A DNA stretch of 59,108 bases, counting the filler, from Sphacelaria rigidula (taxonomy: Eukaryota): NCBI GenBank assembly GCA_964200075.2. It is 8 parts of 8 records of this genome, joined end to end, with 100 filler letters (N's around TTAATTAATTAA, not from the genome) between each part and the next. Parts side by side here need not be neighbours in the genome. Positions count along the whole stretch, not along the records: positions 22,204 to 29,504 come from CAXNAA020015546.1; 7 more parts are not named here. The stretch is one strand, 5' to 3'. The notes beneath the pieces were generated by a model. That model saw only the letters and a list, made by a program, of their open reading frames with translations, searched no databases and was not told the origin of the DNA. Within the stretch, counting starts at the first letter, position 1, and each line of letters opens with the position of its first letter. Both the position numbers and the translations under genes were made by a program. Shown piece after piece: positions 7,302-51,933 of this stretch.

Positions 7302-7401
7302 NNNNNNNNNNNNNNNNNNNNNNNNNNNNNNNNNNNNNNNNNNNNTTAATTAATTAANNNNNNNNNNNNNNNNNNNNNNNNNNNNNNNNNNNNNNNNNNN
7401 N
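7302..7401. other. Artificial contig linker (N44-TTAATTAATTAA-N44); the same linker occurs at 14703-14802, 22104-22203, 29505-29604, 36906-37005, 44307-44406 and 51708-51807
   Basis: Seven 100-bp linkers recur with an exact 7,401-bp period and separate eight 7,301-bp segments. TTAATTAATTAA places stops in all six frames. Confidence 0.97.
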
Positions 7402-12792: not shown

Positions 12793-15700
12793 GGAGAAGA
12801 CTCTTCACTATTGGCAGCTGGAGGTTGTATCGACTCCCTCGCATTGCAAGTCGGTATGGTCGGTAAGCGAGTGACCACAGTCTGTAGCAGTATGTGTGGA
12901 TGGTGATCCTTGGGGCGTCCCAATATTTGAGAAGAAAGTACATGAAGTAACTGGCAGCGTTGGCGACAGGTGGTGCTCGATGCGGTGAGACACAAGGCCA
13001 ACCATGGCTGATATTGTACGTGCCGCATACTTGTACACGTGAGGATTCGTATCTATCTGTTCACGCGCGCCGCGACGCGGCTTCCGGTTGATCGATGTTG
13101 GCGCAAAGCCTGAACTTTACTAGGAGAGTAATGTAGTGCAATACGGCGAGCTGGGGGATGGGGCACAGGAAGACCGTGCGAAGTGTGTAATACTGTCTGT
13201 GAGCGATGGTTTGAAATTCAATCCAGCACCGAACAATACAGTTTGGCCGATTCATCCTCTCACATACTGTACAATCAAGCATGGTGTCGTGCCGCATATT
13301 GCTCGATATAGGACGTCGTCGGAGCGACTTCCATGTACAACAGTGATGGTGGCGGCTGGATGGTTAACACCCTTGTGTGAAAATCGAAAGTAACAGTAAA
13401 CGTTTACGCGAGTTGTTCAACCCGTACATGACTAAAGAAGGTCAAAAACTGTTGAATCGGCATCACTTTCACTTGAAAAAAGTATGTGGGAATCAGATGG
13501 ACTACAAGTAGGTCAATCCATAACTGTTGAATCGGCATCAACTTCACTTGGACAAAGTGTCATAGTCCAGATGTATCGAGGAGGGGAGTACAGTCGGTAC
13601 CACGACAGAGAGTGGATGAGGTGTAACGGCGAGGACAACCACGCACTCTACATGCAACAACAGACAACTTAACAACGTGTAGAGCTCCGTGTATTGCCGT
13701 GGCTTTTCTTTCTTCCGGAGGCATCCATGTACCCCGACTGTACCTCGGTTCTTGCTTCTTCTTGGTGCTTTCTGAAAACGATCGATTCTGGGCGGGTGCA
13801 TGAGGGACATATCCCTTTCCTTGTCCAGCCCCACCGCAGCTAACTGTTGTCGTGAGCTGTACGTCGTAGCGAGCCAAAGAAGCGGAATGAACCCACACAG
13901 CAAGCAATCATACTTTCATTGATATCTTGTTGAGCCATCTGAGGCGGATACCACTTGAGCAGCACCCGTGTACTTTCCAACAGTGTGTATAAAAAAATCC
14001 GCACACAATAGTTAGTCATGCGCAGCAACAAAAAAGCAGTCAGAAAAACTTCAGACGTTGAATCAAGGTTGCACGGCTCATGAGCTACCTGAATATCACC
14101 TGTTATTAGTGCACTGATCTCGATCACGAGCTATAATAGCTCACGTGGCCGCTTTTTCCGTATTTGCTCCCCCCAGCCTTGGACGCCGAGCATGCGGAGT
14201 AGCGTGAGGTAGTAATAGCGCTTTGGCTTCTTGGACCATGCTGTCACGTCACTTGTGTCTTTGGATGAAGGATCTGAGAGTCCCCTTCGATTCGGTATTT
14301 TGGGTAGTATATATAGCTCATGAGCTGTCCGACGTGTGTTTTTGACATTTCATTTGAGCTTCGGACCTCTTTTCGGTACACTACTTCCGGTGGACACTTC
14401 CATGGAAGAGTGCGCATCATGTTACGATCCAACGTTGGAACACCGTCCCGTACAGTAGTATAGTGCCGTGCTGCCTGTGTACAATGTGTATATGGCTGTT
14501 TGCGTGTGGTGCAGTATGGTGTCCACATTCACCCTTGCTCTTCTCCAAAGTTGCGCAGGACTGTGTCACGACGATGGCACTCGCCACAATAAGCCCGCCG
14601 CGGTTGCACGACGATAGCAGCCGGTAGGAAAGGCTGGACTCAAGTGTAAAGTTGGACGTACCTCATGAACCTTTCCGTGCTCGACTCGTGATTTCCTTAT
14701 ACNNNNNNNNNNNNNNNNNNNNNNNNNNNNNNNNNNNNNNNNNNNNTTAATTAATTAANNNNNNNNNNNNNNNNNNNNNNNNNNNNNNNNNNNNNNNNNN
14801 NNGCCAGTATGTCGATTTTAAAAAAATACCGCGGTATCACGGGAATATTCCCGAGAGGAGCCTTGAAAATTTTACGCTCCAACTCTTAATATTGGGGTGA
14901 GCAAACCCATGTAAACTTCAAATCCGCCTCTAGGCTGGCTCAGCTCGTAGCATTTTTTGTTTCGATCCAAAAAGTGCGACCGATTTGTTTCCGCCGATCT
15001 GACAGGTTCGCCGCATTCATGTTCCTAGAAGGCTTCAACTCAAAATTGTAATTAGCGGCGCGCGGAAAATAATTACTCAAGGTGGAAAATAATCGTTTAC
15101 GATCGAAAATATGCAGTAGAAAGGCACGAAGCGGCACTTAGCCGTTATCTTACAGACCACCACGCCAGATAACGCCTGTTCAATGGACCATGCAAACTCC
15201 ATCCCACTCATTCTCAGCCACCACCCCCACCCTGCAGCATAGAGCACGAGTTGAGCCCAGGGATAGATACACTGCAGTTGTTGAGCATGCCATGTTTATT
15301 TGTTATTGGCGAAAACTTGGGCATTTCTTTTCATGTTAGGGATCAGCGACGGAACTGCGTGGTACGGTGGACAACAGAGTTGCGTGCACGCTCATGGATA
15401 GTGCAGGCAGTACAAGGCTGCACGTTGCTGAAGTCCTTTCACGTCGCATAGTTCTGGGCTGTCTGCACTGCACGTTGCCCGCTTCTCTTTTACATCCTCC
15501 TGTTCGAAACACACACATACGCACTCAAGACATACTGCTTGCAAGAAGTGCACAAGTGACCATGTACCGTTTCACGAATTTCACCGTCGTTTTTCGATCG
15601 AAAGCTTGAAAATCCATCTGGACCCAACTATTATTCATGTCTTCCTGTTCCAATAATATATAGTCCTCCTGGGGATTTCACTATTATTAGTTCGGATTCC

Positions 15701-20047: not shown

Positions 20048-22741
20048 AGGAGCAGCAAAAATAGGACATTCATGTTGTATACTAATTCTGATGCCGGGTG
20101 TTCGAGGAAAGACTACAGTAAAAAGCGATGCGCTCTTAGAGTTTTCCGTGTTGCCGAGGTGGATGTCCAAGGGTTTTGTCAACCCTTTAACCGCCCGGGT
20201 AGGCCATGTGTTGAAAAAGATTACCTACTGTACCCTGGCGGTGAATGAGGGAACGGAATAGTGTTTTCAGATGATTTGCGCTTTTCCCGATAAATTAGAT
20301 GTTGCCCCCGACTTTTCTGAAGAACATATTCTGAAAAATAAAGTTCAACGCTGAATTTTCGGAGAAAACCTGTGTCCCGTCTTACAAGGGTAATTCATCT
20401 GGATCATGCATACTTGTTTCTAGTGAAGTTTATGTCGATTCAGCAGAGGACCCATTCCCGGTAAGGGTTAAGTTCACCTATTGCCTGGCCCGGTCAAAAA
20501 ACCTGCGCTCACATTTTTCAGAGTTTTTTTTTTCCCCGAACATTTTTGGAGATTCCGGGATTGGAAAAATCGACCCGTCAAGAAAGCCGTGTATTATTGA
20601 GACCAAAGAAAAAGCGGGAAAAGGAACAAGCGTCCAAATGCAGCACGCTGATTAGTCGCCTCAACCATAGATCCGCCGGGGGGATCGACCAACGTGCTGC
20701 CTTTGGACGCTTGTTCCTTTACTCGATTCTGTATTTGGTCTCGATCAGACACGACCTAAGCACAACGGCGGTGCGCAAAGTGACCTGACTGTTTTAAGTT
20801 TCCTGCAGAATGCAGGTATTATTTGTGGGTTGTGTGGAATCCCTAGTCTATCGCAGGAGTGTCGAGTGTGCAGAATGCAGGTATCGCCTCAGAAGAGTAA
20901 CAACCGAACACGGCAAAGCAACCACAAGAGTTTACCCTGTGATGTCTGGGGGGCCTCCTGTGCGATATCGTCCACTCCTTGTTTTGTGGGTGTACTTCAG
21001 TATCGTGGAGAGAGTAACTGTATTCGCACGAGTTTGGACAACAGCGTTCGTCGTTTGCTCTCCCTGGCTCTGTCCAAAACGCGGTATCCTTTGTTTTTTC
21101 TTTTCGTACGAGATGAGCTGTGGATACGAATTCCTCGCAAACAACGGCTGTGAAACGTTCTTGGAAGTTCATGATCTTGAATAACCCTGAAACCCTAACC
21201 CTAACCCGAGGCATGTCAAAAACCCTCGGGTGAGGGGGGTGCGGAGGGTTACCTAGGTAAAGTGTGCGTTGGCAGACCTCACATCGGCGCCGTGGGCGTT
21301 GTTTTGGACAAAAACATGCTCTGCGCAAGTCTAGGAGCACGTGGTACTGTAAGACCCACTAAAGATCCGAACATCGATGTTCACACTAAAGTCAAGGGAT
21401 ACACGTTGTCAATCATTGTATACGACAAAAGCTTAACCCTTAGACTGCGAGCTTCGCCTCGGAACAGTTTCACGGGCTGACAGCCCTGGGGCATTCGGGA
21501 GTTCCCAGGGGATGGGGAAAGGTGGTTTTTGACAGGGGGTGGGGGCCTGTTCGCAGAGTAGCCGAGAAGGTTACCAAGTCAACCATGTGTCCTTGAAACT
21601 TTCCCACGGAAAATTTCTAAGCAGGGACGGAACCCGAGAGGAGCGGAATGACCATTTCGCTAGCCGTGATCGGTCAGAATGGCCAGTATGCCATACCCCA
21701 GATGGACAACAGAGGGACTAAATCGCAGTCTAGCCGTGTTTCCTATTTTGGTCATAATCATCCAACCATAGGCAACATTGGCACAACAACGTGCTTTTTA
21801 CTCTGCTCGTGGTCTTGGCCGCCTGCCTGACCCGTCTTGTGTTTGCTTAGGGCCAGTGGATGACACCCCATCATTGTACAAACTGGGCCAGCCTCGAAAC
21901 GGATTCAAACAAGTACAGCCGTATCTCATCGCCGCAGACGAATTGTGCCGCGATCTACACATTTGTTAATCGTCTGATCAAGGGGCAGATTCCCATCTTA
22001 CTCAACAGCCCGGTCAGATGCTTGCTCGTTGGTTCAACCCCATGTCGAGTAACGAGATGAAGACGCTGAACGATAGAGTACCAAAGCCAAAGGCGCAATG
22101 GACNNNNNNNNNNNNNNNNNNNNNNNNNNNNNNNNNNNNNNNNNNNNTTAATTAATTAANNNNNNNNNNNNNNNNNNNNNNNNNNNNNNNNNNNNNNNNN
22201 NNNGTCTGTGTCGATGAGATATTGCTTTTCGAGCTTAAATCCGTTTTTAGGCTAGCCCAGCTCGTATCACTTACGTCTTCGATACGGCACTCATTAATTC
22301 GAGACAGCACGTACTCCTTGCGCAAGATATCATTTATTTTTCGATACGACACTCAACGATAGACAAGGAGAAGCCCGGTGACCCAACTTACTACAGCACC
22401 ATCAACGGAAGGCCACATTGCACCAACGCTATGGGAGGTAAAAAGCCCTCATAGCCGTGGCGCATTTCCACCATCAACGTTTGCACAGCTCATGTATTCG
22501 AACTAAAATACGTGGCACCCACAGATCTACCCAGATATAAACACAGCAGGCGGGACACATCGTAAACGAGTCTCGCTCGACGTCCAGCGTCGTGAAACCC
22601 TCTCGAATCCCTACTTGTATGCTGGGTGGAACCATTAGCGCCCCCAGAGTACACGTCACGAGAAACACAAAAATACGGCAACACAAATAGCACACGTACC
22701 AATACTACACGCTCACTGCAGAATGCAGTTACGGTTCGCTG

Positions 22742-25700
22742 TCACCGGCCATCTGAATCTAGCAACTCATCGTCTCCATTGACGTTCGGCGAGCGCGCAT
22801 GGTTGTCGTCAGTTTCGCCTTCTCTCAGTCCCTCGTCTTTTTCCCTTCTCCTACTCCCACCACTCGAATTATCTTCGGTACCACCAAGAACCCTTCTGGC
22901 CACTGGATCCCCCGCCACCCAGACATCATCACGCGGTAGAATCACGGGTAACCCCTGATCTTCTTCATCTCTGGTTTTGCCCCGACCGCCTCGATCTTTC
23001 AGGGAATACTTTTGAGGCGAGGAGACAACATCCCTTGCCCCCACCTGGTCAAATGTTCCTGTGCTCCGGTTCCCGCCGGCCAACGACGAGGAGGTCGACG
23101 CTCTCCTCCCCCCTTCCTCCGAAGCACTGGAAACCATTGCCTCCGCTGAGCGGTTTTCCCTGAAGGAGTGCCCCCGTAAAGGCGAACGAGGCGGTGATGA
23201 CGAGTTATCATCCTTCGATGACGGTTGAGACAGCCGCGCTTGAACAGATAATCCCAAACTCGGCTCCCCCTCACTCACACCTTCTCTCGCGCTTTCACCC
23301 CTCCGACTACCGCCGTCAACAAAACTCGGCGCTCTGCCTGAATCTTCTGGTATTTGCAACATTGTTGCCTGCATCTCTATTCCCTTTTCCTCCTCTTCCC
23401 CATCCCCGACATCCTGCACAGCAGGACTTTTAGAGCGTAGGCTACTTTTTACCGCCCCCGAAGCGCGATGCCTCCTCCCTGTTTCCCCCCCCCATCCCGC
23501 CCCAACGACCTCCTCACTAAACACCCGTCGATGTCGCTCTCTGCGGTCAACTTCAGCAAAGGCGAGGGTGGACACGGACGAATGCCTTATCCGCCCGCGC
23601 CGGCTACCGCCTTCGTCGCATTCTCCGAGATTTGCGGCGGCGGCGGCGGCAGCCACCGTGCTTGCTTCGATCTCACCGGAACTCCTGCCGAGTAACTCGT
23701 TTCCAAGTCGCAGGTATTCGGTCGTGAGTTTGCGTGTAAAGGATGACGGTTCGGAAGGTGGATCCGGCACCAAAGTTTCTTCGCCCTAGGAGGGGACATG
23801 GGGCAGCGGCGGAATGGACGATGGGTTGCGTTGAGACGGTGGGCTGCCAGGATGTCAGCGTGTATGGAAGGCGGTTTCACTTGGAGACGTACTTCATGCA
23901 TGGTGGTGGTGTAGTAGGGTGGCGTGGATCAAATCCAAACGTTTCACCCTCGCCCTTCTCGCGCACGCGACAAGACATTTCGATGCTTCGCAACTCATTT
24001 GTCTCCTGAAGAACTGGAACCACGTGTGAACTGAAGACTGGCAAAGCATGATGTCTTGGAGGGATTGGTGTGTGTTTCACTCCGTGCGATTTGAAGTTTG
24101 AGCCCTTGACATATTTACATGTCTCTATATGCCCCCCCCTCTCCCCCTTCCCCCCAGCGTGTCTCCCTCTCGGCACGTATCCCAACTCTCGAAAGATTAC
24201 CCACCTCTCCCCGGGCACCTGCCTCGCGAGTTATTTCTAAGCAGTGGATCATGACTACAATGTCAGTACATCGACTCTTCCCGGTGTTTCTGTTGGCTCG
24301 CATTTTCATGCTTTCCACAGCGGAGATCATTGAAACAAAGCACCACTGCGGCGATTCCAAGACACTGCTTGTACTCCGCCCAAATTGCGCGATCACGTAC
24401 AAATTTGACCACCGGAGCGCGCCGGCTGTACTTGGCAGTTTCACGACGCGCTCGTGGTGGGCAGAAATACAACTGCGTTTTGCACATGCCCTCGTTCACT
24501 CATCGATTGATTGGGGGAAATCAAGTCACCTGTCTGTAGCCGGCCATCTTCATCCAATACTGGACGACGTCCCCTTGCCACAGCATCCCGTGGATGCCAC
24601 AGGCGAAGATCGACACTATCCAAACCACTAGCGAAATGTCCACCCATCTGGAAAAGAGACAAGACACAAACATCACGGATGCGCATACATATGGCAGATA
24701 CGTTCAAACGCTGTCAACATCGCGCGGTGAAGTATTACCCCACCCATGGGCGACAACAACCCTCTCGGAGGTCTCTCCACCCTGCAACCCTCCCCCCTAC
24801 TCACAGCACATATATCAGTTATTTGTTTCGCATTCTTGGGTGCAGCGTCACGTTACAAATACAAATCAATCGAACAACTCGTAAAAGCAGACAGAAACAA
24901 TGGCTCATAGAGTGGAAGCTGTGACGTTATAGCCGCTACTGAATCGCCATGGTATTTGTTTTTACAACGATAGATCCTTGGTACGACCCCCGCTGAAGTC
25001 ACACGAACTGGGTTTTTCGCTCACAACATGCCTCAGTGAAAAACTATATATATTTCGATCGTAAATAAAAACTCGATTCAACTTTCGACGAGGGAAAGGG
25101 ACGGTCCGTATCTTCCTCGCGATAAAAATCAAGGCAAGCCCCGCAAAAAGAAGGTAGGGAAACAGAAACACCTGTGTGACCTTCGTATGTGATTTCTTGT
25201 GTGAACCCCGCTGGCGCACCAAGATACACCGGACGGTGACGATGTCCAGAATAAATAGGACGAAATACACACACAGCTAGGGTCAAAACCAACATTTTCG
25301 TATTATCAAGAATCAATCGGCCACCACGGAAACGGGCAATGAAACGGCGAGGCAGCACCAACTCCGTTCAGATAGCGTAGCTAGCCGCCATTTTACATGG
25401 CAAATGCTCTACTCAGTTCCGCATCTGGTACTCTCCGACGAGAAGGGCTCGGTGCTATGGCGCCCAGCGCACTCACGTGAACGAATTTTTCGACTCCTGT
25501 ACTTCTGGTATCTCCTCGGGCTCCGTGATGTGATCTAGCTTGGCGGATGTCAAATTCACCTTTTTCCAACGTCGGAGGGCATACGGCATGAGGCACCAGA
25601 ACGGCAGAGGAGGGGAGGGAGTGAGCAAGCATTCACCGATGCCTTTCAGTCTCTATCCATGTGCTGCTGTGGTTCACGACCCGAAGCACAGCGAGAAGCG

Positions 25701-28700
25701 CGGCGAATGCTAACTCAACGGACGCGAAACCCAGCACGAGCGGAGACCCGTCTAATGCCAACGCGAATAGGGCCAGGGAAAGTGTTGCTCACGCGGAAAA
25801 CATGAAGAGAAGCGCCAGAGAGTGCTGCCTGCCTTCATCTTCTCTCGAGGGGTTCAATGGCTCTCATGTCACACGCTGCGATATATACAGTGATTCATTT
25901 GAGACAGTGGCGCTTTACGGTGTCGGCACCTTAGCAAGGGATATTGTCACGGTCCCGGAGAGTGTTCATTGAAACTCAGTCAACAAAGGCCATCTGGAAC
26001 CTTGCCGTTACATCCGACGAGTGAAGAAGCACACCTTGTAGTATTCATGCGGCCCTTTCGAGATGAAAGCCACATCATCCAGGCAGTCGAAGTACTGCGC
26101 GAAGTCCTTCAGGCTGGTAACAAAGCTGAACTTTCGCTGAAAACACACGACAATACAAGTAAACAGCGTGCGCAAATAAAAAAGTGCAGCTTTCAGGCCG
26201 TGCCAAGCGTCCCGATGACCGTCCGACACAGACGCAGTTTGTACGCGCGAAATGGAAATAAAAGCGCGAGAAACATCAATCTTGGTAAAATGCTCCTGAG
26301 AGTGTGCTATATATATCCCAGAGGGTGGGTCGAAATATTTTCCATGACAAAAAACGTACTGTAAAGTTGACGCACCAACAAACATTTCACCACGGGCCCG
26401 AATATATCAGGCAACTTGGGTTTGCCCCAGCGGTTTTTCTACCAGTATTGCACACCCTCTCAGTCTATAGCTCACCTCCTGGAGACAAAGCTGTAGTGAT
26501 TGGTAGTAGGCCACCACCTGCTCCCAGTCATCCGTCTGAGCAGCGCCCGCTGCGTCCGAAGCCGGAGCCACCTTGGCTTTCAAGCCCCATCCGTCGTCAG
26601 CATCAACGTCTTCTTCCCCTTCGACGCCCCCCGATTCAGCAATCGATTCTCCCGCAGCCGTCGCCGCCGCTACCGTGCCCTTTGCTACCGCCTCTGATTC
26701 TACGGAGGAGGACGCAGCTGTGGTGGATGTTTCTAACCCCCTTCGCGTAACGACGTCCGCCCCCTCGGACATCGTCGCAGAGCTAGTGCTTGAGGGGAAC
26801 GCAATGGCATGAGCCGCTTGTACTACAGTAGTAGCTTCCGCGCCATCTTCACCATCCCGATAGACTTGCAGCAGCGCCTTCCCGCGTAGCAACACTCGTC
26901 TCCTGCTTCTCCTGCCGCCATCGCTGCTCTCACCGCGACTTGTCCCATCTCCACCGTTCCCGTCGTCCACTTCCCCTTGCCGCCCCCCGACAGCCCCACT
27001 GCTACTGTCACTACTGCGGTCATCGTTCGCACCATCTCCCTCATCGTCCCCTCCACCGCCGGACACTCCCGACGAGGAGGAATCGACCGTACTATTGCCA
27101 TCATTCCTTCCAACGGCTGTGTCGTTGTTGTCGCGGGTTGTGTTGTTGAGGTCCCCCCCACCAGCTACTGGCGCACTCTCGTGTTCATCTCCGGCTCCGT
27201 CCAGCTGCGCATCTAGCGTGATGACTTCAGGTGCTGTCTCGGTGTAGATGACGATCTTGTACTTACGAGGCATGACAGCGGGGGCCAGCCTCACACCCCG
27301 CTCCTGCGCCGCGGACAGCAGCTCCCACACGTACTCGTCGCAGCTGCTAGCCGTCACGAAGGCACGGCCTACACGTGTGCATGGAAGCATGGACAGACGA
27401 AGGCGGCGGGTTCAGCAAAACAAAAACAAAAGGAACACTGTACAGGCTGGTCCAGCCTAGAAATAGGTTTGAGCTCTCAGAGCAATATCTCATCGACACT
27501 GACCAGTCGGGCCATGATCCGCATATCGTCTTATTTGTCTAATCAAGGGGAACGTGCCCATCTGCTCAAAAATCTCGGCCAATTTTTCTCAGTGATCAAA
27601 CCTCATGTCTAGTAATTCCTGAACCATGCGGAGATAGCGTCCATTCTAAAGTCAATATGAAACTTTGAACGACGTGAACAGCGGATGATGACGATTTTTG
27701 GTGTGGACATGCCCTGGAGCACAGGGAAACGACCGATGCCCTTGCCTTCACCTAATTTGTTATGTCTAGATATGGCGCCCAAAATATTCCACACCATAAT
27801 CAATGTATCACGAGCATAGCCGCTGAAAACACTAAATCTGAATATCTCGTCTCAGTTTCTGAAACTTGTGCTTTGAAACATCTTGTGAAGAATCGCTAGT
27901 GCATGATAAAATAAATATATAACAGATTCTTTCATTTTCTTCACTTGTTTTTCATTTTTTTTCATGAGCACAACGCTATAATCACTCTTCAGGTTTCAGT
28001 AAATTGCGGTTAGATCATGGGGAGGAAAAAAATCCTTGGGTCTACAAATACATGTTCAAGTATGTCTCATCCATTGTCCATACCAAATTTTAGGGTCCAC
28101 CTCTAGAAATTGAGGTAAGAATGGGCCTGCAAACTACGAATCCGCTTCTAGGCTGGCCCAGCTCGTACTTCGAACTAATTGCTAGATTGTTAACAAAAAA
28201 CACAGCCTATGTAACAAGGGACCATGGATCGACAGAACAGAGAAATGGGAAAGTACAACACAATATCAACAATATTCCCGCCGGGTTGTCTTGTGTAGCT
28301 GGCGAGATAGTGGTGGTTGGGGGACCGTTACTCAGGACGTGAATGATGTGTGGAACGCTGGGGTAGAGAGTCCAAATAGCCACCGGGGATCAGCGTGTCT
28401 GTGTGGGTGCGGGCACGCTCACTGTTGAAAATCCAGCTAGTGCTACCGGGGTTAGATATTCGGATGTAAGGCAGCAAGGGCACACAGAAGAAACATCCAG
28501 GGAGCATCGAGCCGTCAAAAATAATTTTAAGCGACCGTCAAATGAGGACAAATTGTCAGTTGCTGAGACAGCACAGAGCGGCACGGCCCACAGGATACGG
28601 ACTCCATCGCATTTCCATTGCATCTTCTCTGCAAGTTGAGTACTATAGCTGCGCCACGCACATGACGGTACACATTTCATTTGTGTTCTCTGCAAATCGG

Positions 28701-28928
28701 AGCGCCCCAGAAGGGAAATGCGTAATCACCTCATCCGGTGTAAGGGTCATTTCTAGACCTCTCCCCTTTTAGGCGTATACATTGCTGCTAGATACCTGGG
28801 TAATCCTCGTAGACGCTGAAGGGCTGATATCGAGGATTTTCGCGTAAATAACCCGTGCTGAACTCGACAGCGTAGCTGAAAAACGCACCGGTCGTCTCCC
28901 CCATGTACGAGGTTCCCGTCCAGTACGC
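22742..28928 (-). CDS. CLN5: CLN5-family protein (NlpC/P60-like, BMP synthase/thioesterase-like), 5'-partial, with C-terminal TM helix and long cytosolic tail; exons 28928-28796, 27368-26476, 26136-26035, 25559-25477, 24647-24530, 23785-22742 (790 aa + stop)
   Basis: All junctions are AG/GT with matching phases (1,0,0,2,0), totalling 2,373 nt in frame. AYWTGTSYMGETTGAFF...RYQPFSVY...FVTASSCDEYVWELL...GVRL...KIVIYTETAPEV aligns by eye to human CLN5 (HW..TISGNMF..YYETWNV..DSYDCSKFVL..GAEF..RIFLYSGEPT), including the catalytic Cys. VAYY...AFI...EYYKVNL...ITEPEEIP matches the CLN5 C-terminus (FYY...FYL..EYW...ITYEEIP). Exon structure is more certain than the family call. Confidence 0.78.
25020..25270 (+). 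repeat. Dispersed intronic repeat; second copy at ~44577-44850
   Basis: Shared blocks TCGACGAGGGAAAGGGAC, AAGGCAAGC.CCGCA, GTGTGA.CCC.GCTGG.GC.CC, GTCCAGAA...GGACGA. It resembles an abundant brown-algal interspersed repeat (from recall, unverified). Confidence 0.75.
27443..28165. mobile_element. Tc1/mariner-type MITE (~720 bp) in the first visible intron of the CLN5-like gene
   Basis: TA|CAGGCTGGTCCAGCCTAGAA ... TTCTAGGCTGGCCCAGCTCG|TA. Other ends of the family occur at ~14930-14949, ~19143-19380, ~21878-22005 and 22204-22266. Confidence 0.75.
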
Positions 28929-29689
28929 CTGAGTATTACGTCCAATCGAATCATCGAATTTGACACCCCAAGGCGCAAGAGCGAGGCAAGGCGAAGACGA
29001 GAGTTCATGGAACAGTCGCAGCAACGCGGTGGTACCGTGAAAGCGGAGTATGCTACTGTATGGAGCAGAACAGTCCATGTGCGCAGTGCACAGCGGATGA
29101 GTGCTGTTGTTGCTGCAGGTGTTGTGGATTTCTTGCAACGGAGAAGAATACCGGGTGTTGCATCACGTCGCTGGAAAAAAATACGAGACCACAAACGTGA
29201 CAGTGGCCTTGTTCGGTCGGTTGAGAGCGCAACTTGGATACACAAGACGCGCTGGTTGGGGGTGACAACGAGCTGCTGTCGTTGGCAAGTAGCAACGGGC
29301 GACGGTTCCATTAACCCTATTGGGACCGGACCCCCACTAACACAAAGTTGACCCTGTGTTAGTGTAAAAATAAAAAAGAAGTCTTCCAGCGACCTGCCCA
29401 ATCACGGCGAGGCGAAATTTATCGACCAAGCCCGAACGACCAGCGCGGGGATCGTTGTCGAGTGTGATGCCATTGCAAAGATCGTGTGGGGGCCCTATCC
29501 CTGGNNNNNNNNNNNNNNNNNNNNNNNNNNNNNNNNNNNNNNNNNNNNTTAATTAATTAANNNNNNNNNNNNNNNNNNNNNNNNNNNNNNNNNNNNNNNN
29601 NNNNGCTGACTGGTCAGTAGTCTAGTTGGTTGTCTCTTAAACCGTCACAAGACGGAGCCGAATGTCCACCTGTGGTGCTTTTCGTTGCC

Positions 29690-35123: not shown

Positions 35124-37279
35124 CTACACAGGGTATGCAACGGCACTGCACATTATCCTTCCCTCGGATGCTTACAGGTTGGTTCCAACGCTTGACCTCA
35201 AGGAAGTCTTTCCAGAGAAAATAAGAAGAACAGCAGCGACTAGTAGCAAGACAAGTAGGTTCCCTGCCACGTCATCGCCAACCTGAAGTGCGCCCCTCGA
35301 CCACCCAGGCACTTTCATCACACCACACTATCCTGGGACGCCGACGACGGCCTGATGGCAGTACCCGTTGATGGCGTATGGTACAAGAATCAAGCTACCC
35401 GAAATCTCGGCCAAATGCTCCAAACATTTGTGGCGATGAAGCTGACATCAAGGCGAGAAGAACGGCACCAGTTCCGGCTCCTAACTCATCGCCATTCCGA
35501 AGTGATGGCCAAGAAAAATTCTGGGGGGAATGTGTACAACAAGATGTACTTGAATTTTTCATACCCTGGACAACAGAATACACAATCAAAACGTGCACTG
35601 CGTACAGTATCGACTATTGCGCCTATTGCAACAGACAATAGTCTCCACACTGTACGCAGTACATTTTTGACAATATATTCTATTGTCCAGGGTGTGGAAT
35701 CTTCACCCACAGGAATCCATGTATTTCGGATTGTTCACTCGAGGTCTGAGAGTTAAGACCTGAAAGTTCGAGGAGATGAGCATTTCAACCATATGCGGGG
35801 CGTCACTGGTGATGTTTTTATGTTTGCTTATTTATTCTGGTGATGAAACCGGATATTTATTCCGAGAGTTCCATTCAGTGGACCTAACTCAAAAAAGAAA
35901 GGATAAGACAGCATCTCTGCTCATGGCGATGTCCTCGAGGTGGTCGATGCGTCAATCTTCTTGAAATTCCACGTCTTGGCTCTCACAGCTCGAGTGAACA
36001 ATCGGTGGAGAGACTGCTTCGTCTCAAATAGTGTGACAAATCTGTAGGCCATGTCTTGGGCCGCCTTTCATGGTGACAAGTATAGACCCTAAAAATGTTT
36101 TCCGGGCCTCACTTTCATGTTTTCTTGAAAATACCACGTTGTGGGGGCATTCCTCGCAAATGAAAGTGCATGCACAATCGCGGTAAAAACGCTTCTACAT
36201 TTTGATGGCGTCGCTGAGTATCGTAGTCCAATCACTGGCGCCCCCATCAACCGAAGAAACATGGAGGATACAACATACAACCCTTTTTGCTTCGATAATC
36301 ATTATTAACACGCGAGAGAAATCAGAGCCATAGTTAATTGGTACACCCGAGGGGCTTCGGCAATCATCCCCGACCCTGGTTTCAAGGCGTCGACGGAGCC
36401 GTGAGATATCCCCTGGCAACGTTTTCTTCGCAACGCTAACATGATGGCGATGCTCCCGCAACGAACTACAGTCTACTAATTACGGTACCTCTGCAGCATA
36501 ATAATCGGCCTCCGCAGGCGGAAAACATTGATTGGTATGTACCGTCTGTGGTGATGTTGGCACCTGCGCGGAGTGTCGCAGCTCTTGACGTATTGCATGG
36601 GATGGACTCGTGCAAAAGGTGATTTCCAGAGCAATTACCGTGATTTCCCGCGGTAAATTTCACGTAGGAAAATTTCTGAAGTTAGCCCTGATTCTCACAA
36701 GATTTATTGCCCGTTTAACCTGAGAATGCGAGCGTTGCCTCGGAACAGTTCCACCGGCCGACAGTCCAGGGACATGTAAGGTTTTGCAGGGGGATGAGGA
36801 GGTGTTTTTCTAGGGGGGGGGGGGGGGGGGGAACTGTTCGTAGAAGAGCCGGAAAGGGCACCTGGGTGACGACCCGTGGGGGGAGTTTCCCACGGGGAAC
36901 CCAAANNNNNNNNNNNNNNNNNNNNNNNNNNNNNNNNNNNNNNNNNNNNTTAATTAATTAANNNNNNNNNNNNNNNNNNNNNNNNNNNNNNNNNNNNNNN
37001 NNNNNCCCCCCCCCCCCCCCCTTCTTCCCGCTCACATTGAAATGCTGAAGATTGTAGTGATAAACCATAGCATTCCTAACCTCAAGAACAAAATAGGGGT
37101 CTATTTGGGGTATCAAGGGTAGCTGTTGGTTCGGTTCTCTTCTCCAGTTGTTAGTGTACTATTATAGTACCATAGCACGAACACTGCATAAGCCTGAACC
37201 ATATAGTAGTCTACGGGCATATTCTCCGAGCGAACCAGTCTACGCAAGCGTACCCTGAGATTGTTTCCCCACGTCTCAC

Positions 37280-43819: not shown

Positions 43820-45979
43820 GTCTCCAATAATCATTTTCGGCGTCGCTATCCCCAGGTATAGCCGGAAGAAAGCAGACGGCACACGCGCATGAAAGGTGGA
43901 AAATCTGACCTCACAGATACCCGAAATGCTTCCTTCCGCGCCATTCTTTTGCAAGCCACCCCGAGTGAGATTATCGCTGTGCCCGTTCATACACCATACT
44001 TCCCGGAGAAGCGGTGAGGCGTGCCACGGTACGGGTGCGCAAAATGTTTCTGGGGCTCGTTCATTAATGAGCCCATGAACCAGAAAACCTGGGCCCCAGT
44101 GTGCAACCTCAGACAACGTTTGGCCTAAGAAGTGCGCCCGATACCCTTTTTGTAGTAGCTTGCCGCTGAAGCCTTTGATATCGCTGAGTAGGATGTCGAC
44201 GTGCAGCTGCAAGCACACACATGCGGCCATTTTTTGGCTACACCCCAAAATACCTGCGGAGGGATGCGCTGCGCTCCAGGGAAAAAACAAGCCTCCGGAG
44301 GCCTTCNNNNNNNNNNNNNNNNNNNNNNNNNNNNNNNNNNNNNNNNNNNNTTAATTAATTAANNNNNNNNNNNNNNNNNNNNNNNNNNNNNNNNNNNNNN
44401 NNNNNNCATGCAGCCTGAACCCAAACATCAGGCACTGTATGGCCATTTTTTTCGTGACACTTTTGGGCTGGTTTTAGGGGGGGGCTATCGTAGAAAGTGT
44501 CACGTGTGTTACTTTTCCGTCTTGACTTTGTGCATTTGTTGACAAGCAGTTTTTTTCACGATAAACGTCTTCCCCTCACACCATGCCCAACAGTGGAGGG
44601 CGACTATGTCGTGGGTAAAGAAAATCCAAATTAAAGGTCGACGAGGGAAAGGGACTGCTGATGCTGAATCCCTCGCGCGATAACAAATAAAGGCAAGCAC
44701 CGCAGAAGAAAGGTGGGGTACCAGAAACATTTTTTTTTAAAGAAGCTCCCATGCTGACCTTCCTCCTGTGTGACCCCGGCTGGTGCGCCCACATATATAT
44801 ACCGAAAGGTGTAGACCAGCGTCCAGAACAGTAGGGACGACACCACACGAATACATCAGACGTTTTTTTCGCGGGGGATATTCGTCCATGTGGTCCGTCA
44901 TTACCACAGTACATGAAGTCGCATTCTTTTCGCTTACTGATGTACTATAGCTTCATCGTGAAATGTCGAATGTTGTATAGGTATATGATGGGGCGAATTC
45001 AAACCGCATTTGTACATGAAGATGTTGCTCTTTCGTAAGCAAAATATCAACTTCTAAGCAAACTCCTACTTCTGGAACACGAGTTCACTTTTTTCTCCAT
45101 GTTCCAGCTTTTTTTTCAATCAGAACGCATTGTCTACGATACATTCGGGTCTTCTGCGTTCTTCACACTTTTAATACATGGAACAAAGTTAAGTGTGTTT
45201 CATCCACCACTCCGCGCTCTCAACGTTTGCGTTCCTCAATACCTATGAAGCCACACCCATGCCAGATCTTCCCTCTTCTACTCATCACATATAGCACAGT
45301 TTCATAACCGATACTCACGTCAAATCTCCGGCTCAAGCTCTTGGTAGGCGTCATTACGTCTACCATCTCCCGATTTTAGTTAATCCTTGTATATTAGACA
45401 TATATGTTGACCATTGTAATCATAGCCTGAACCGGCAGTTCTCCCCTTCAGTTGCTTCCAAGAACCTTTTTGCCCATGCTAGAATATCGCCCTGTTGACA
45501 ATTGCTGCTTCAACGGTTATCTACACGATTTCTCCCGCGCAGCGGAGACAAGCACCCGCAAGTTTTAAGCTCCGCAGCGCATCAACTAAGAGGTGAGATC
45601 AGGATGCTGGATGTTTGGGCATTTCCCCTTTAACCACACATATGACATAGTCACATTGAAGGCGGAGGGCGCAGCACCGACGTTGTCCAGTCTTACCCAA
45701 GAATACATGCGCACAACTTTTGGGAGACGCTGTAAACCTCACCACAGCGTTTAAACACGTTGAAGGGAGATCGCACGTCTTACCAAATGTGATTAGAGTT
45801 GAATCCTCCTCAAGGTACTCCTCCGATTACGTGTGCACTCGGGCAAGGGTGCTGATGTGCGGTATCTCCTGCGAAATAGGAACCCCAAAATTCGTGACGC
45901 CCTCCTCTAGAACATAGAACAAAATACCGTAACACTGGGAATTGCTCCAGGTGCGGCACGACGGTTCGTTATAAAGGAG

Positions 45980-51707: not shown

Positions 51708-51933
51708 NNNNNNNNNNNNNNNNNNNNNNNNNNNNNNNNNNNNNNNNNNNNTTAATTAATTAANNNNNNNNNNNNNNNNNNNNNNNNNNNNNNNNNNNNN
51801 NNNNNNNGAGCTAGCGAGACATCGTAACTTGCATGACCGAAATGCTATTGTTGCTTCGCTCTAGTACTCGGCTCGGACAGTAGAGATATGCATATTGACA
51901 ACAACTATGGCCAACACTATTCTGTTTGTAACA

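What the first reader, a model, noticed from the sequence alone, without database searches (positions are those of the whole stretch)
22742..28928. Membrane-anchored CLN5 (BMP-synthase-like) homologue with a long cytosolic tail in an alga
Seen: six phase-compatible exons encode a CLN5-like domain with the Cys of SSCDEYVW. It is followed by an N-glycosylation sequon (NLT), a hydrophobic helix (WVDISLVVWIVSIFACGIHGMLW) and a ~360-aa disordered tail. Known: mature animal CLN5 is a lysosomal NlpC/P60-fold Cys enzyme (bis(monoacylglycero)phosphate synthase / S-depalmitoylase activity) that ends right after the ITYEEIP motif, with no C-terminal TM. Inference: this is a type I membrane form of CLN5, suggesting a BMP-like lipid or thioesterase pathway in algal vacuoles with a different targeting mechanism. 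The ORF track does not show it because it needs splicing.
Basis: partly seen in the sequence, partly recalled or inferred. Interest (0 to 1): 0.8.

Follow-up and report, generated by a model that had tools for sequence, protein, structure and literature searches.

The report
Membrane-anchored CLN5-like protein lacking catalytic histidine
A brown-alga gene encodes a true relative of the human Batten-disease lipid enzyme CLN5 that is tied to a membrane and carries a long cytosolic tail, but its closest relatives lack the enzyme's essential histidine, so it probably binds rather than processes lipids.

Summary
Six in-frame minus-strand exons (28928 to 22742) give a 790-residue partial protein with no internal stop. 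Spliced contigs in four runs of one study join exactly these exons through GT..AG introns, so the CLN5-like domain, the membrane helix and the 363-residue tail lie in one transcript. The NCBI model (Sphacelaria rigidula, 359 aa) stops too early.

CLN5 homology is real but distant. The window's exons and the NCBI model give no Pfam or PDB hit. Orthologues score below the Pfam cut-off. An ochrophyte-only profile hits only human CLN5 (E 7.6e-6), hhalign gives 99.9%, and the orthologue model matches 6R99 at Z 20.8.

The enzyme reading is weak. Cys280 and Tyr258 are kept, but His166 aligns to Leu in the orthologues. The exon that would hold it is missing, because the contig ends at 29504.

The architecture is not special to this alga: 47 of 67 relatives lack the His, and 29 of 35 long ones have a C-terminal membrane helix.

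Best reading: a type I endomembrane protein with a probably non-catalytic CLN5 fold. Earlier notes of this scan reported membrane-anchored CLN5 homologues in giant viruses, on other DNA.

The parts
28796..28928 (-). Exon 1 of the part held in the window (aa 1-44 plus 1 base). It encodes AYWTG...RYQPFSVYEDYP. The Tyr at 28829-28827 aligns to CLN5 Tyr258.
   Evidence: RNA-type contigs cover 28795-28932 and join to 27367. tblastn with P0009 gives 83% identity. Tyr mapping.
26476..27368 (-). Exon 2 (893 nt). It holds the Cys280-equivalent in SSCDEYVW (Cys codon 27342-27340), the strand KYKIVIYTETAPEV, a disordered insert and the helix WEQVVAYYQSLQLCLQE.
   Evidence: One unbroken stretch in the spliced contigs of all 4 runs. 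Eight relatives from other assemblies keep this ORF open. Cys mapping.
26527..27213 (-). Acidic, Gly/Ser-rich disordered insert of about 229 aa inside the CLN5 fold, with four N-x-S/T sequons.
   Evidence: Variable in length and sequence among brown algae but always open. The equivalent part of P0009 has pLDDT below 50. It is present in the RNA-type contigs, whereas NCBI model P0003 removes 37 aa of it.
26035..26136 (-). Exon 3: RKFSFVTSLKDFAQYFDCLDDVAFISKGPHEYYK, part of the C-terminal half of the CLN5 fold.
   Evidence: Joints 26136->26476 and 25556->26032 (cut +3) in 4 of 4 runs. 94% identical to P0013.
25477..25559 (-). Exon 4: VNLTSAKLDHITEPEEIPEVQESKNSF(T). It is the last strand of the CLN5 fold, with the NLT sequon at 25556-25548, and is the counterpart of the human ...ITYEEIPLP C-terminus.
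   Evidence: Joints on both sides in 4 of 4 runs. The donor TTCAC|GTGAGT is used; NCBI model P0003 instead reads through to TGA. Human C-terminus printed.
24530..24647 (-). Exon 5: the single transmembrane helix (24646-24578) and the juxtamembrane QGDVVQYWMKMAGYRQ.
   Evidence: Kyte-Doolittle 19-residue score 2.14. Joints 24647->25477 and 23784->24529 in 4 of 4 runs. Conserved in P0009, P0013 and P0047.
22742..23785 (-). Exon 6: 347 aa of the 363-aa disordered cytosolic tail, plus the stop codon (22744-22742). It contains YLRL (23716-23705, a YxxPhi-type motif) and C-terminal DDELL (22774-22760, a DxxLL-type motif).
   Evidence: Open frame. Covered by the spliced contigs. The islands TTEYLR[LV]G, G[IL]EM, RW[IV]GFAG.P and [DE]DELL recur in Ectocarpus sp. 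8 P0047 and Hapterophycus P0013. Coordinates checked.
22231..22741 (-). 3' untranslated region.
   Evidence: RNA-type contigs run on to 22231 (X1) and 22315 (X2).
28929..29504 (-). Part of the intron upstream of exon 1, reaching the end of the contig. The 5' exons (signal peptide, His166-equivalent region) are not in the window.
   Evidence: Acceptor ...actcag|GCG. The spacer begins at 29505. tblastn with the N-terminal 125-178 aa of P0009 and P0010 finds nothing in the window. The loose end of the RNA-type contigs behind 28932 translates to ...ASLGYVMDIDQ, which matches the orthologues.

Best explanation
This is the 3' three-quarters of a brown-alga gene (Sphacelaria rigidula by the 100% identical NCBI protein) for a type I membrane glycoprotein.

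Shown:
- Six exons are spliced into one mRNA.
- The ectodomain is a genuine, very divergent homologue of the CLN5 fold (a permuted NlpC/P60 papain-like fold). A loop of about 230 disordered residues is inserted in it.
- One transmembrane helix follows directly after the last strand of the fold.
- A 363-residue disordered tail follows the helix.

Inferred:
- An N-terminal signal peptide, seen only in orthologues, puts the CLN5-like domain in the lumen (or outside the cell) and the tail in the cytosol.
- The tail's conserved YLR[LV] and [DE]DELL islands look like adaptor-binding sorting signals. They suggest cycling in the endosomal or vacuolar system.
- The closest orthologues have Leu at the catalytic His166 position and Met or Leu at Glu183. 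Related ochrophytes have also lost the Cys. The domain most likely no longer works as a Cys-His acyl-transferase or thioesterase.
- I read it as a lipid- or acyl-chain-binding module on a sorting or receptor-like membrane protein. The pocket positions Val150, Ile164 and His166 are Ala, Phe and Leu here.
For: Transcript: the joints and depths, and the in-frame join.

Homology:
- phmmer with orthologue P0010 finds 139 proteins at E<=1e-3.
- Of the 88 I scanned, 28 pass the Pfam CLN5 cut-off, 9 more hit it below cut-off, and no rival domain family appears.
- The ochrophyte-only profile hits only 6r99_A (E 7.6e-6).
- hhalign gives 99.9%, E 2e-34, over 252 columns on both sides of the insert.
- Foldseek gives E 6.4e-10, with the next hit at 0.1.
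- VIA-align gives Z 20.8, rmsd 3.2 over 243 residues, with the next hit at Z 4.0.

His loss:
- Three alignments (hmmsearch, MAFFT, hhalign) use the same register. That register puts Cys280 on the Cys and Tyr258 on the Tyr, and it puts His166 on Leu.
- All 20 proteins that have the His also have the Cys.
- 47 of 67 lack the His, and only 7 of those keep the Cys.
- A midpoint-rooted FastTree separates a His+Cys clade from a His-less clade (support values not inspected).
- Per PMC9012467 (passages read), the H166A and C280S variants of human Cln5 have severely decreased activity.

Topology:
- Kyte-Doolittle score 2.14 for the helix.
- Hydrophobic N-termini in P0010, P0019 and P0148.
- 29 of 35 long His-less relatives have a downstream hydrophobic 19-mer.

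Tail motifs conserved in P0047 and P0013.
Against: - The residue at the His166 position of this very gene is not known, because its exon is missing.
- The Cys and its SSCDE[FY]VW motif are invariant in the 16 brown-alga sequences I saw that cover it. This could mean a retained chemical role with another base.
- Brown algae and Tribonema have a His six residues upstream (LNH[DEA]).
- The sorting-motif reading rests on short motifs and on my knowledge of YxxPhi and DxxLL signals, not on a test.
- Whether brown algae use such signals is not shown.
- Location (vacuole, plasma membrane or other) is unknown.
- No run is on record as RNA; the kind is the tool's guess.
Confidence: 0.6

Rival explanations
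1. One reading: an active, membrane-tethered CLN5-type enzyme (BMP synthase or S-depalmitoylase) working in the algal vacuole. It would use the conserved Cys with Tyr and some substitute base.
For: - The Cys280 and Tyr258 equivalents are kept, and the Cys motif is invariant in brown algae.
- The whole fold is retained at Z 20.8.
- A nearby His (LNH[DEA]) co-occurs with the Cys in brown algae, Phaeothamnion and Tribonema.
Against: - His166 aligns to Leu and Glu183 to Met or Leu in every close orthologue.
- Raphidophyte-type relatives keep the Cys without that upstream His. Chrysoparadoxa and others replace the Cys by Thr, Ala or Ser.
- The H166A variant of human Cln5 has severely decreased activity (PMC9012467, passages).
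- The upstream His sits six strand positions away from the His166 position. This is an inference from the secondary structure.
Confidence: 0.2
2. Same protein, but it acts at the plasma membrane or cell surface as a receptor-like protein with an extracellular CLN5-like domain, not in the vacuole. The tail motifs would then serve endocytosis or signalling.
For: - Type I topology with a very long disordered tail of 363 aa.
- YxxPhi-type motifs also drive endocytosis (my knowledge, not tested).
- Tails of relatives vary from 20 to 346 aa.
Against: - Characterised CLN5 proteins are lysosomal (PMC9012467, PMC11568333, passages).
- Dictyostelid relatives carry an ATG27 / mannose-6-phosphate-receptor-type membrane segment and tail, which points to endosomal traffic.
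- There is no direct evidence either way.
Confidence: 0.15
3. Gene-model artefact: the transmembrane and tail exons belong to another transcript, and the protein ends at ...ESKNSFT as in the NCBI model.
For: NCBI protein P0003 (359 aa) ends there by reading through the donor.
Against: - Spliced contigs of 4 of 4 runs join exon 4 to the helix exon and on to the tail exon at depth 80-102.
- Gene models of Ectocarpus fasciculatus, Ectocarpus sp. 8 and Hapterophycus canaliculatus contain the helix, and the last two also the tail.
Confidence: 0.02

Closest known systems
Human CLN5 (PDB 6R99; Pfam PF15014), lysosomal S-depalmitoylase and BMP synthase
   Same: - Same fold over nearly the whole crystal structure (orthologue model Z 20.8, chain 126-399).
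- The Cys280 and Tyr258 equivalents are kept.
- The fold ends on the same motif (ITEPEEIP here against ITYEEIP).
- N-glycosylation sequons lie in the domain.
   Different: - His166 is Leu and Glu183 is Met or Leu in the orthologues.
- Asp279 is Ser.
- A disordered insert of about 230 aa sits in a loop.
- A transmembrane helix and a 363-aa cytosolic tail follow, where the human chain stops after about 10 more residues.
- Pfam scores are below the cut-off (18-21 bits against 27).
Uncharacterised ochrophyte orthologues: Ectocarpus sp. 8 CAM9514459.1, Tribonema minus KAG5193069.1, Chrysoparadoxa australica CAM9148025.1, Fibrocapsa japonica (MMETSP)
   Same: Same architecture: CLN5-like domain, transmembrane helix, tail. 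His166 position not His. The YQPFSVY and CLxxR motifs are shared.
   Different: - The long insert is found only in the brown algae, with a short one in Tribonema.
- The Cys is replaced by Thr, Ala or Ser outside the brown-alga, Tribonema, Phaeothamnion and raphidophyte sequences.
- Tails are 33-346 aa.
- None has a described function.
Dictyostelid CLN5-domain proteins with an ATG27 / Man-6-P-receptor-type C-terminus (Cavenderia fasciculata XP_004366313.1, Acytostelium subglobosum XP_012749200.1)
   Same: CLN5 domain followed by one transmembrane helix and a cytosolic tail.
   Different: They keep His and Cys and pass the Pfam cut-off (58 and 75 bits). Their tail is about 50 aa and is related to ATG27 / M6PR. 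They have no long insert.
Diatom-type His-less relatives (for example Coscinodiscus wailesii MMETSP protein P0053)
   Same: His-less CLN5-like domain, C-terminal helix, and a tail of 100-220 aa.
   Different: His is replaced by Lys and Cys by Ser (15 of 67 sequences). They form a separate branch in the tree.

Membership tests
CLN5 (Pfam PF15014) | Score at or above the Pfam gathering cut-off (27 bits) | tested here: not met
   Window exons and NCBI model P0003 give no hit. Orthologues P0009 and P0010 score 18.2 and 21.2 bits, with CLN5 as the only family listed.
CLN5 (Pfam PF15014) | Homology to CLN5 by profile methods | tested here: met
   The ochrophyte-only profile A2 hits only 6r99_A at E 7.6e-6. 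hhalign of A2 against 23 Pfam-threshold CLN5 proteins gives 99.9%, E 2e-34. 28 of 88 phmmer hits of P0010 pass the Pfam cut-off.
CLN5 (Pfam PF15014) | CLN5 three-dimensional fold (6R99) | tested here: met
Foldseek E 6.4e-10. VIA Z 20.8, rmsd 3.2, 243 of 285 residues. The window protein is 69% identical to P0009 over aa 317-443 by blastp and 83% over exon 1 by tblastn.
CLN5 (Pfam PF15014) | Catalytic Cys280 | tested here: met
   The Cys of SSCDEYVW (27342-27340) aligns to Cys280.
CLN5 (Pfam PF15014) | Catalytic His166 | tested here: not met
   Tested in orthologues only, because the exon is not in the window. The position is Leu in P0009, P0010, P0017, P0018 and P0019, and Val, Ile or Glu in further ochrophytes. 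All 20 canonical proteins in A1 have His.
CLN5 (Pfam PF15014) | Tyr258 of the His-Tyr-Cys arrangement | tested here: met
   The Tyr of RYQPFSVY (28829-28827) aligns to Tyr258. This column is Tyr in 62 and Phe in 19 of 84 sequences.
CLN5 (Pfam PF15014) | Glu183, which positions His166 | tested here: not met
   Orthologues only: Met in P0009 and Leu in P0010, P0017, P0018 and P0019. The exon is not in the window.
CLN5 (Pfam PF15014) | Soluble mature luminal protein ending just after the fold | tested here: not met
   A transmembrane helix (Kyte-Doolittle 2.14) and a 363-aa tail follow in the same transcript. The human chain is 407 aa and aligns to residue 401.
CLN5 (Pfam PF15014) | Thioesterase or LPG transacylase activity | not testable with these tools
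   Needs a biochemical assay.

The most novel reading that the evidence does not exclude
Ochrophyte algae (brown algae, xanthophytes, raphidophytes, diatoms) share an undescribed family of type I membrane proteins. In this family a CLN5 lipid-enzyme fold has lost its catalytic His, and often also its Cys. The fold has been turned into a luminal lipid- or acyl-chain-binding head on a long, motif-bearing cytosolic tail. It would be a lipid-sensing or cargo-sorting receptor of the endolysosomal or vacuolar system, not an enzyme.
Probability: 0.3. Interest if true: 0.65.

Novelty: new variant of a known kind. Interest (0 to 1): 0.45.

Why it matters
CLN5 is a Batten-disease protein. Its role as S-depalmitoylase and BMP synthase was settled only recently (PMC9012467 passages; PMC11568333 passages).

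A large algal clade keeps the fold, loses the catalytic histidine and gains a membrane anchor with a long tail. This shows that the fold has a second, probably non-enzymatic use. It gives a natural set of variants for asking what the CLN5 pocket binds.

For brown-alga genomics, the public model of this gene is wrong at both ends and in the middle. Several orthologue models are partial.

I found no paper on algal or stramenopile CLN5 relatives. The search for CLN5 + stramenopiles + homolog returned 0 papers. The search for CLN5 + algae returned 3 papers, none on the subject by title (listing only).

Tried and rejected
- Single-exon translations against Pfam and the PDB gave only chance-level hits and no CLN5. 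NCBI model P0003 also gave no CLN5 hit, and P0010 alone against the PDB gave none.
- The whole genome is not held.
- tblastn for the 5' exons anywhere in the window found nothing, because the neighbouring stretches are other contigs.
- No RNA holder is listed by the look-up of sequencing runs. The four runs laid are 'RNA?' by guess. I did not lay the probable DNA runs X5-X8, so I did not test whether the joined form also exists as DNA.
- The ESM Atlas gave no usable hit.
- A profile search with canonical CLN5 proteins listed no named brown-alga protein. The search is word-based, so this does not show that brown algae lack a canonical CLN5.
- I first took KFDDSIG, upstream of exon 1, for the His motif. 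It is intron: the acceptor is at 28929 and the RNA-type contigs leave the genome there.
- I also took FWCLMPYALRRW, upstream of exon 4, for coding sequence. It is intron.
- The literature search was too loose to be useful.
- Cluster look-ups gave no names for most metagenome relatives.
Full report
**What the window is.** The 59-kb window is not one stretch of genome. It is eight pieces of 7301 bases, separated by N44-TTAATTAATTAA-N44 spacers. The finding lies in the piece 22204-29504. NCBI protein P0003 ('unnamed protein product [Sphacelaria rigidula]', 359 aa) is 100% identical to parts of it and sits on a contig of 7301 bases. The flanking sequence in the window is therefore unrelated, and anything upstream of 29504 is missing.

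**The observation.** From the splice sites I derived six exons: 28928-28796, 27368-26476, 26136-26035, 25559-25477, 24647-24530 and 23785-22742. They are phase-compatible and give 790 residues with a single terminal stop.

**Transcript evidence.**
- I laid the contigs of four public runs (one study; 'RNA?' is the tool's guess) on the contig.
- In each run, one contig at depth 80-102 joins exactly these exons.
- The five skipped parts all begin CT and end AC on the + strand, which is GT..AG for the gene.
- The introns have depth 0-4.6.
- Exon 2 is covered as one block. The 37-residue 'intron' inside it in the NCBI model is therefore not supported.
- The donor after ...NSF(T) is used, whereas the NCBI model reads through it to a stop.
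- The contig of run X2 is 3601 nt long and runs about 797 nt beyond 28932. Its first 30 loose letters translate to ...ASLGYVMDIDQ, which is what the orthologues have before AYW.

**Orthologue models.**
- Ectocarpus fasciculatus P0009 (560 aa, partial) has the N-terminal half, the insert and the helix.
- Ectocarpus sp. 8 P0047 (707 aa, partial) and Hapterophycus canaliculatus P0013 (369 aa, partial) have the helix and a long tail.
- Discosporangium P0010 (302 aa, partial) has a hydrophobic N-terminus and the domain up to the Cys.

**Is it CLN5?**
- At first sight, no. Single exons and P0003 hit nothing in Pfam or the PDB.
- P0009 and P0010, which hold the N-terminal half, hit only Pfam CLN5. 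They score below its cut-off: 18.2 and 21.2 bits against 27, over profile positions 37-218.
- An exhaustive phmmer search with P0010 found 139 proteins at E<=1e-3.
- I scanned 88 of them against Pfam. I left out 9 exon-2 fragments already seen and 42 others, mostly short pieces of 46-252 aa.
- Of the 88, 28 pass the CLN5 cut-off and 9 hit it below cut-off. The only other families are a PT repeat in one protein and ATG27 / Man-6-P-receptor tails in two dictyostelid proteins.
- A profile of 12 ochrophyte sequences, none of which reaches the Pfam cut-off, hits only human CLN5 (6r99_A) in the PDB, at E 7.6e-6.
- hhalign of that profile against 23 Pfam-threshold CLN5 proteins gives 99.9%, E 2e-34, over 252 columns on both sides of the insert.
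- An AlphaFold model of P0009 built with a 90-sequence alignment has pLDDT above 90 over residues 20-220 and 440-560.
- Foldseek finds 6R99 at E 6.4e-10, and the next hit is at 0.1.
- VIA-align gives Z 20.8, rmsd 3.2 over 243 of 285 residues, model 20-511 on chain 126-399. The next hit is at Z 4.0.
- Homology with CLN5 is therefore established, for the orthologue and by extension for this gene.

**Catalytic residues.** According to PMC9012467 (passages read):
- Human Cln5 uses His166, Tyr258 and Cys280.
- Glu183 holds the His in place.
- The H166A and C280S variants have severely decreased activity.

What the alignments show:
- In the alignment to the human chain, Cys280 falls on the Cys of SSCDE[FY]VW and Tyr258 on the Tyr of RYQPFSVY.
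- His166 falls on the Leu of FFLTGVGF, and Glu183 on Met or Leu.
- MAFFT and hhalign give the same register.
- The column is Leu in the brown algae, Phaeothamnion and Tribonema. It is Val, Ile or Glu in other ochrophytes.
- In the 90-sequence alignment, 67 sequences cover both columns. Twenty have His and all twenty have Cys.
- Forty-seven lack His, and only seven of these keep the Cys. Those seven are two brown-alga, the Phaeothamnion, the Tribonema and the two Fibrocapsa (raphidophyte) sequences, plus one unnamed relative (P0022).
- A midpoint-rooted FastTree of 75 of the 90 sequences separates the His+Cys proteins from all the His-less ones. Fifteen were dropped for covering less than 60% of the domain, and support values were not inspected.
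- The His-less groups include a diatom-type group with Lys and Ser (for example Coscinodiscus wailesii) and a Thr/Trp group.
- For this gene itself the His position cannot be read, because the exon is missing.

**Architecture.**
- The helix WVDISLVVWIVSIFACGIHGMLW starts one residue after the last strand of the fold.
- The human chain ends about 10 residues after the matching ITYEEIP.
- Among His-less relatives with at least 140 residues after the Cys column, 29 of 35 have a hydrophobic 19-mer downstream. Among canonical ones, 5 of 9 do.
- The membrane-anchored form is thus the rule in this clade and is not special to Sphacelaria.
- The tail is poorly conserved except for a few islands shared with Ectocarpus and Hapterophycus. 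These include YLR[LV], about 40 residues after the helix, and [DE]DELL near the end.
- From my knowledge, these resemble YxxPhi and DxxLL adaptor-binding signals. This was not tested.

**Reading.** I conclude that this is a type I membrane glycoprotein. Its luminal or extracellular head is a CLN5 fold that has probably lost Cys-His catalysis, and its cytosolic tail carries sorting-like motifs.
- The most likely role is binding of a lipid or acyl chain in the endomembrane system, not BMP synthesis. I give this about 0.6.
- An active enzyme with an unusual base remains possible (0.2), because the Cys motif is invariant in brown algae.

**Known or new.**
- The protein is in NCBI as an unnamed, mis-modelled product, and the relatives are 'hypothetical'.
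- I found nothing in print on algal CLN5 relatives (listings only).
- Earlier notes of this scan describe membrane-anchored CLN5 homologues in giant viruses with intact catalytic residues. I did not test them. Some of my canonical, anchored metagenome hits could be of that kind.

Noticed in passing
window 7302-7401, 14703-14802, 22104-22203, 29505-29604, 36906-37005, 44307-44406, 51708-51807: N44-TTAATTAATTAA-N44 spacers recur every 7401 bases. The window is a chain of eight separate 7301-bp contigs, so neighbours across a spacer are not genomic neighbours.
   Followed up: yes
window 28060-28303, 27328-27571, 22204-22447, 29280-29504: Stretches inside introns and at the contig ends have very high summed contig depth in the four runs (up to 4993). 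Odd short-flank joints such as 22225->28140 also occur. These are probably repeated elements that are transcribed or abundant elsewhere.
   Followed up: no
window 25473-28904 (NCBI model P0003): The public gene model starts at an internal Met, removes 37 residues inside exon 2 and ends by reading through a used splice donor. The spliced contigs contradict all three.
   Followed up: yes
P0142 (Cavenderia fasciculata) and P0146 (Acytostelium subglobosum), residues about 296-369: Dictyostelid CLN5-domain proteins with intact His and Cys carry a C-terminal membrane segment and tail. These match Pfam ATG27 and Man-6-P_recep.
   Followed up: partly
P0010 residues 30-60; P0148 residues 20-36: The N-terminal hydrophobic stretch is followed by ...GSVFAAAA (Discosporangium) and ...CSAFHVS (Fibrocapsa). 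Both recall the ASAFAP-type signal-peptide junction of ochrophyte plastid-targeted proteins (my knowledge). Tribonema lacks it.
   Followed up: no
C-termini of P0021, P0023, P0024, P0025, P0033, P0053, P0060: Many His-less relatives end in two or three hydrophobic residues (...ATLL...FRTL...RSVI...RALV...VFSL...LEVV...LQIV). The brown-alga proteins end ...DGR or ...EDR.
   Followed up: no
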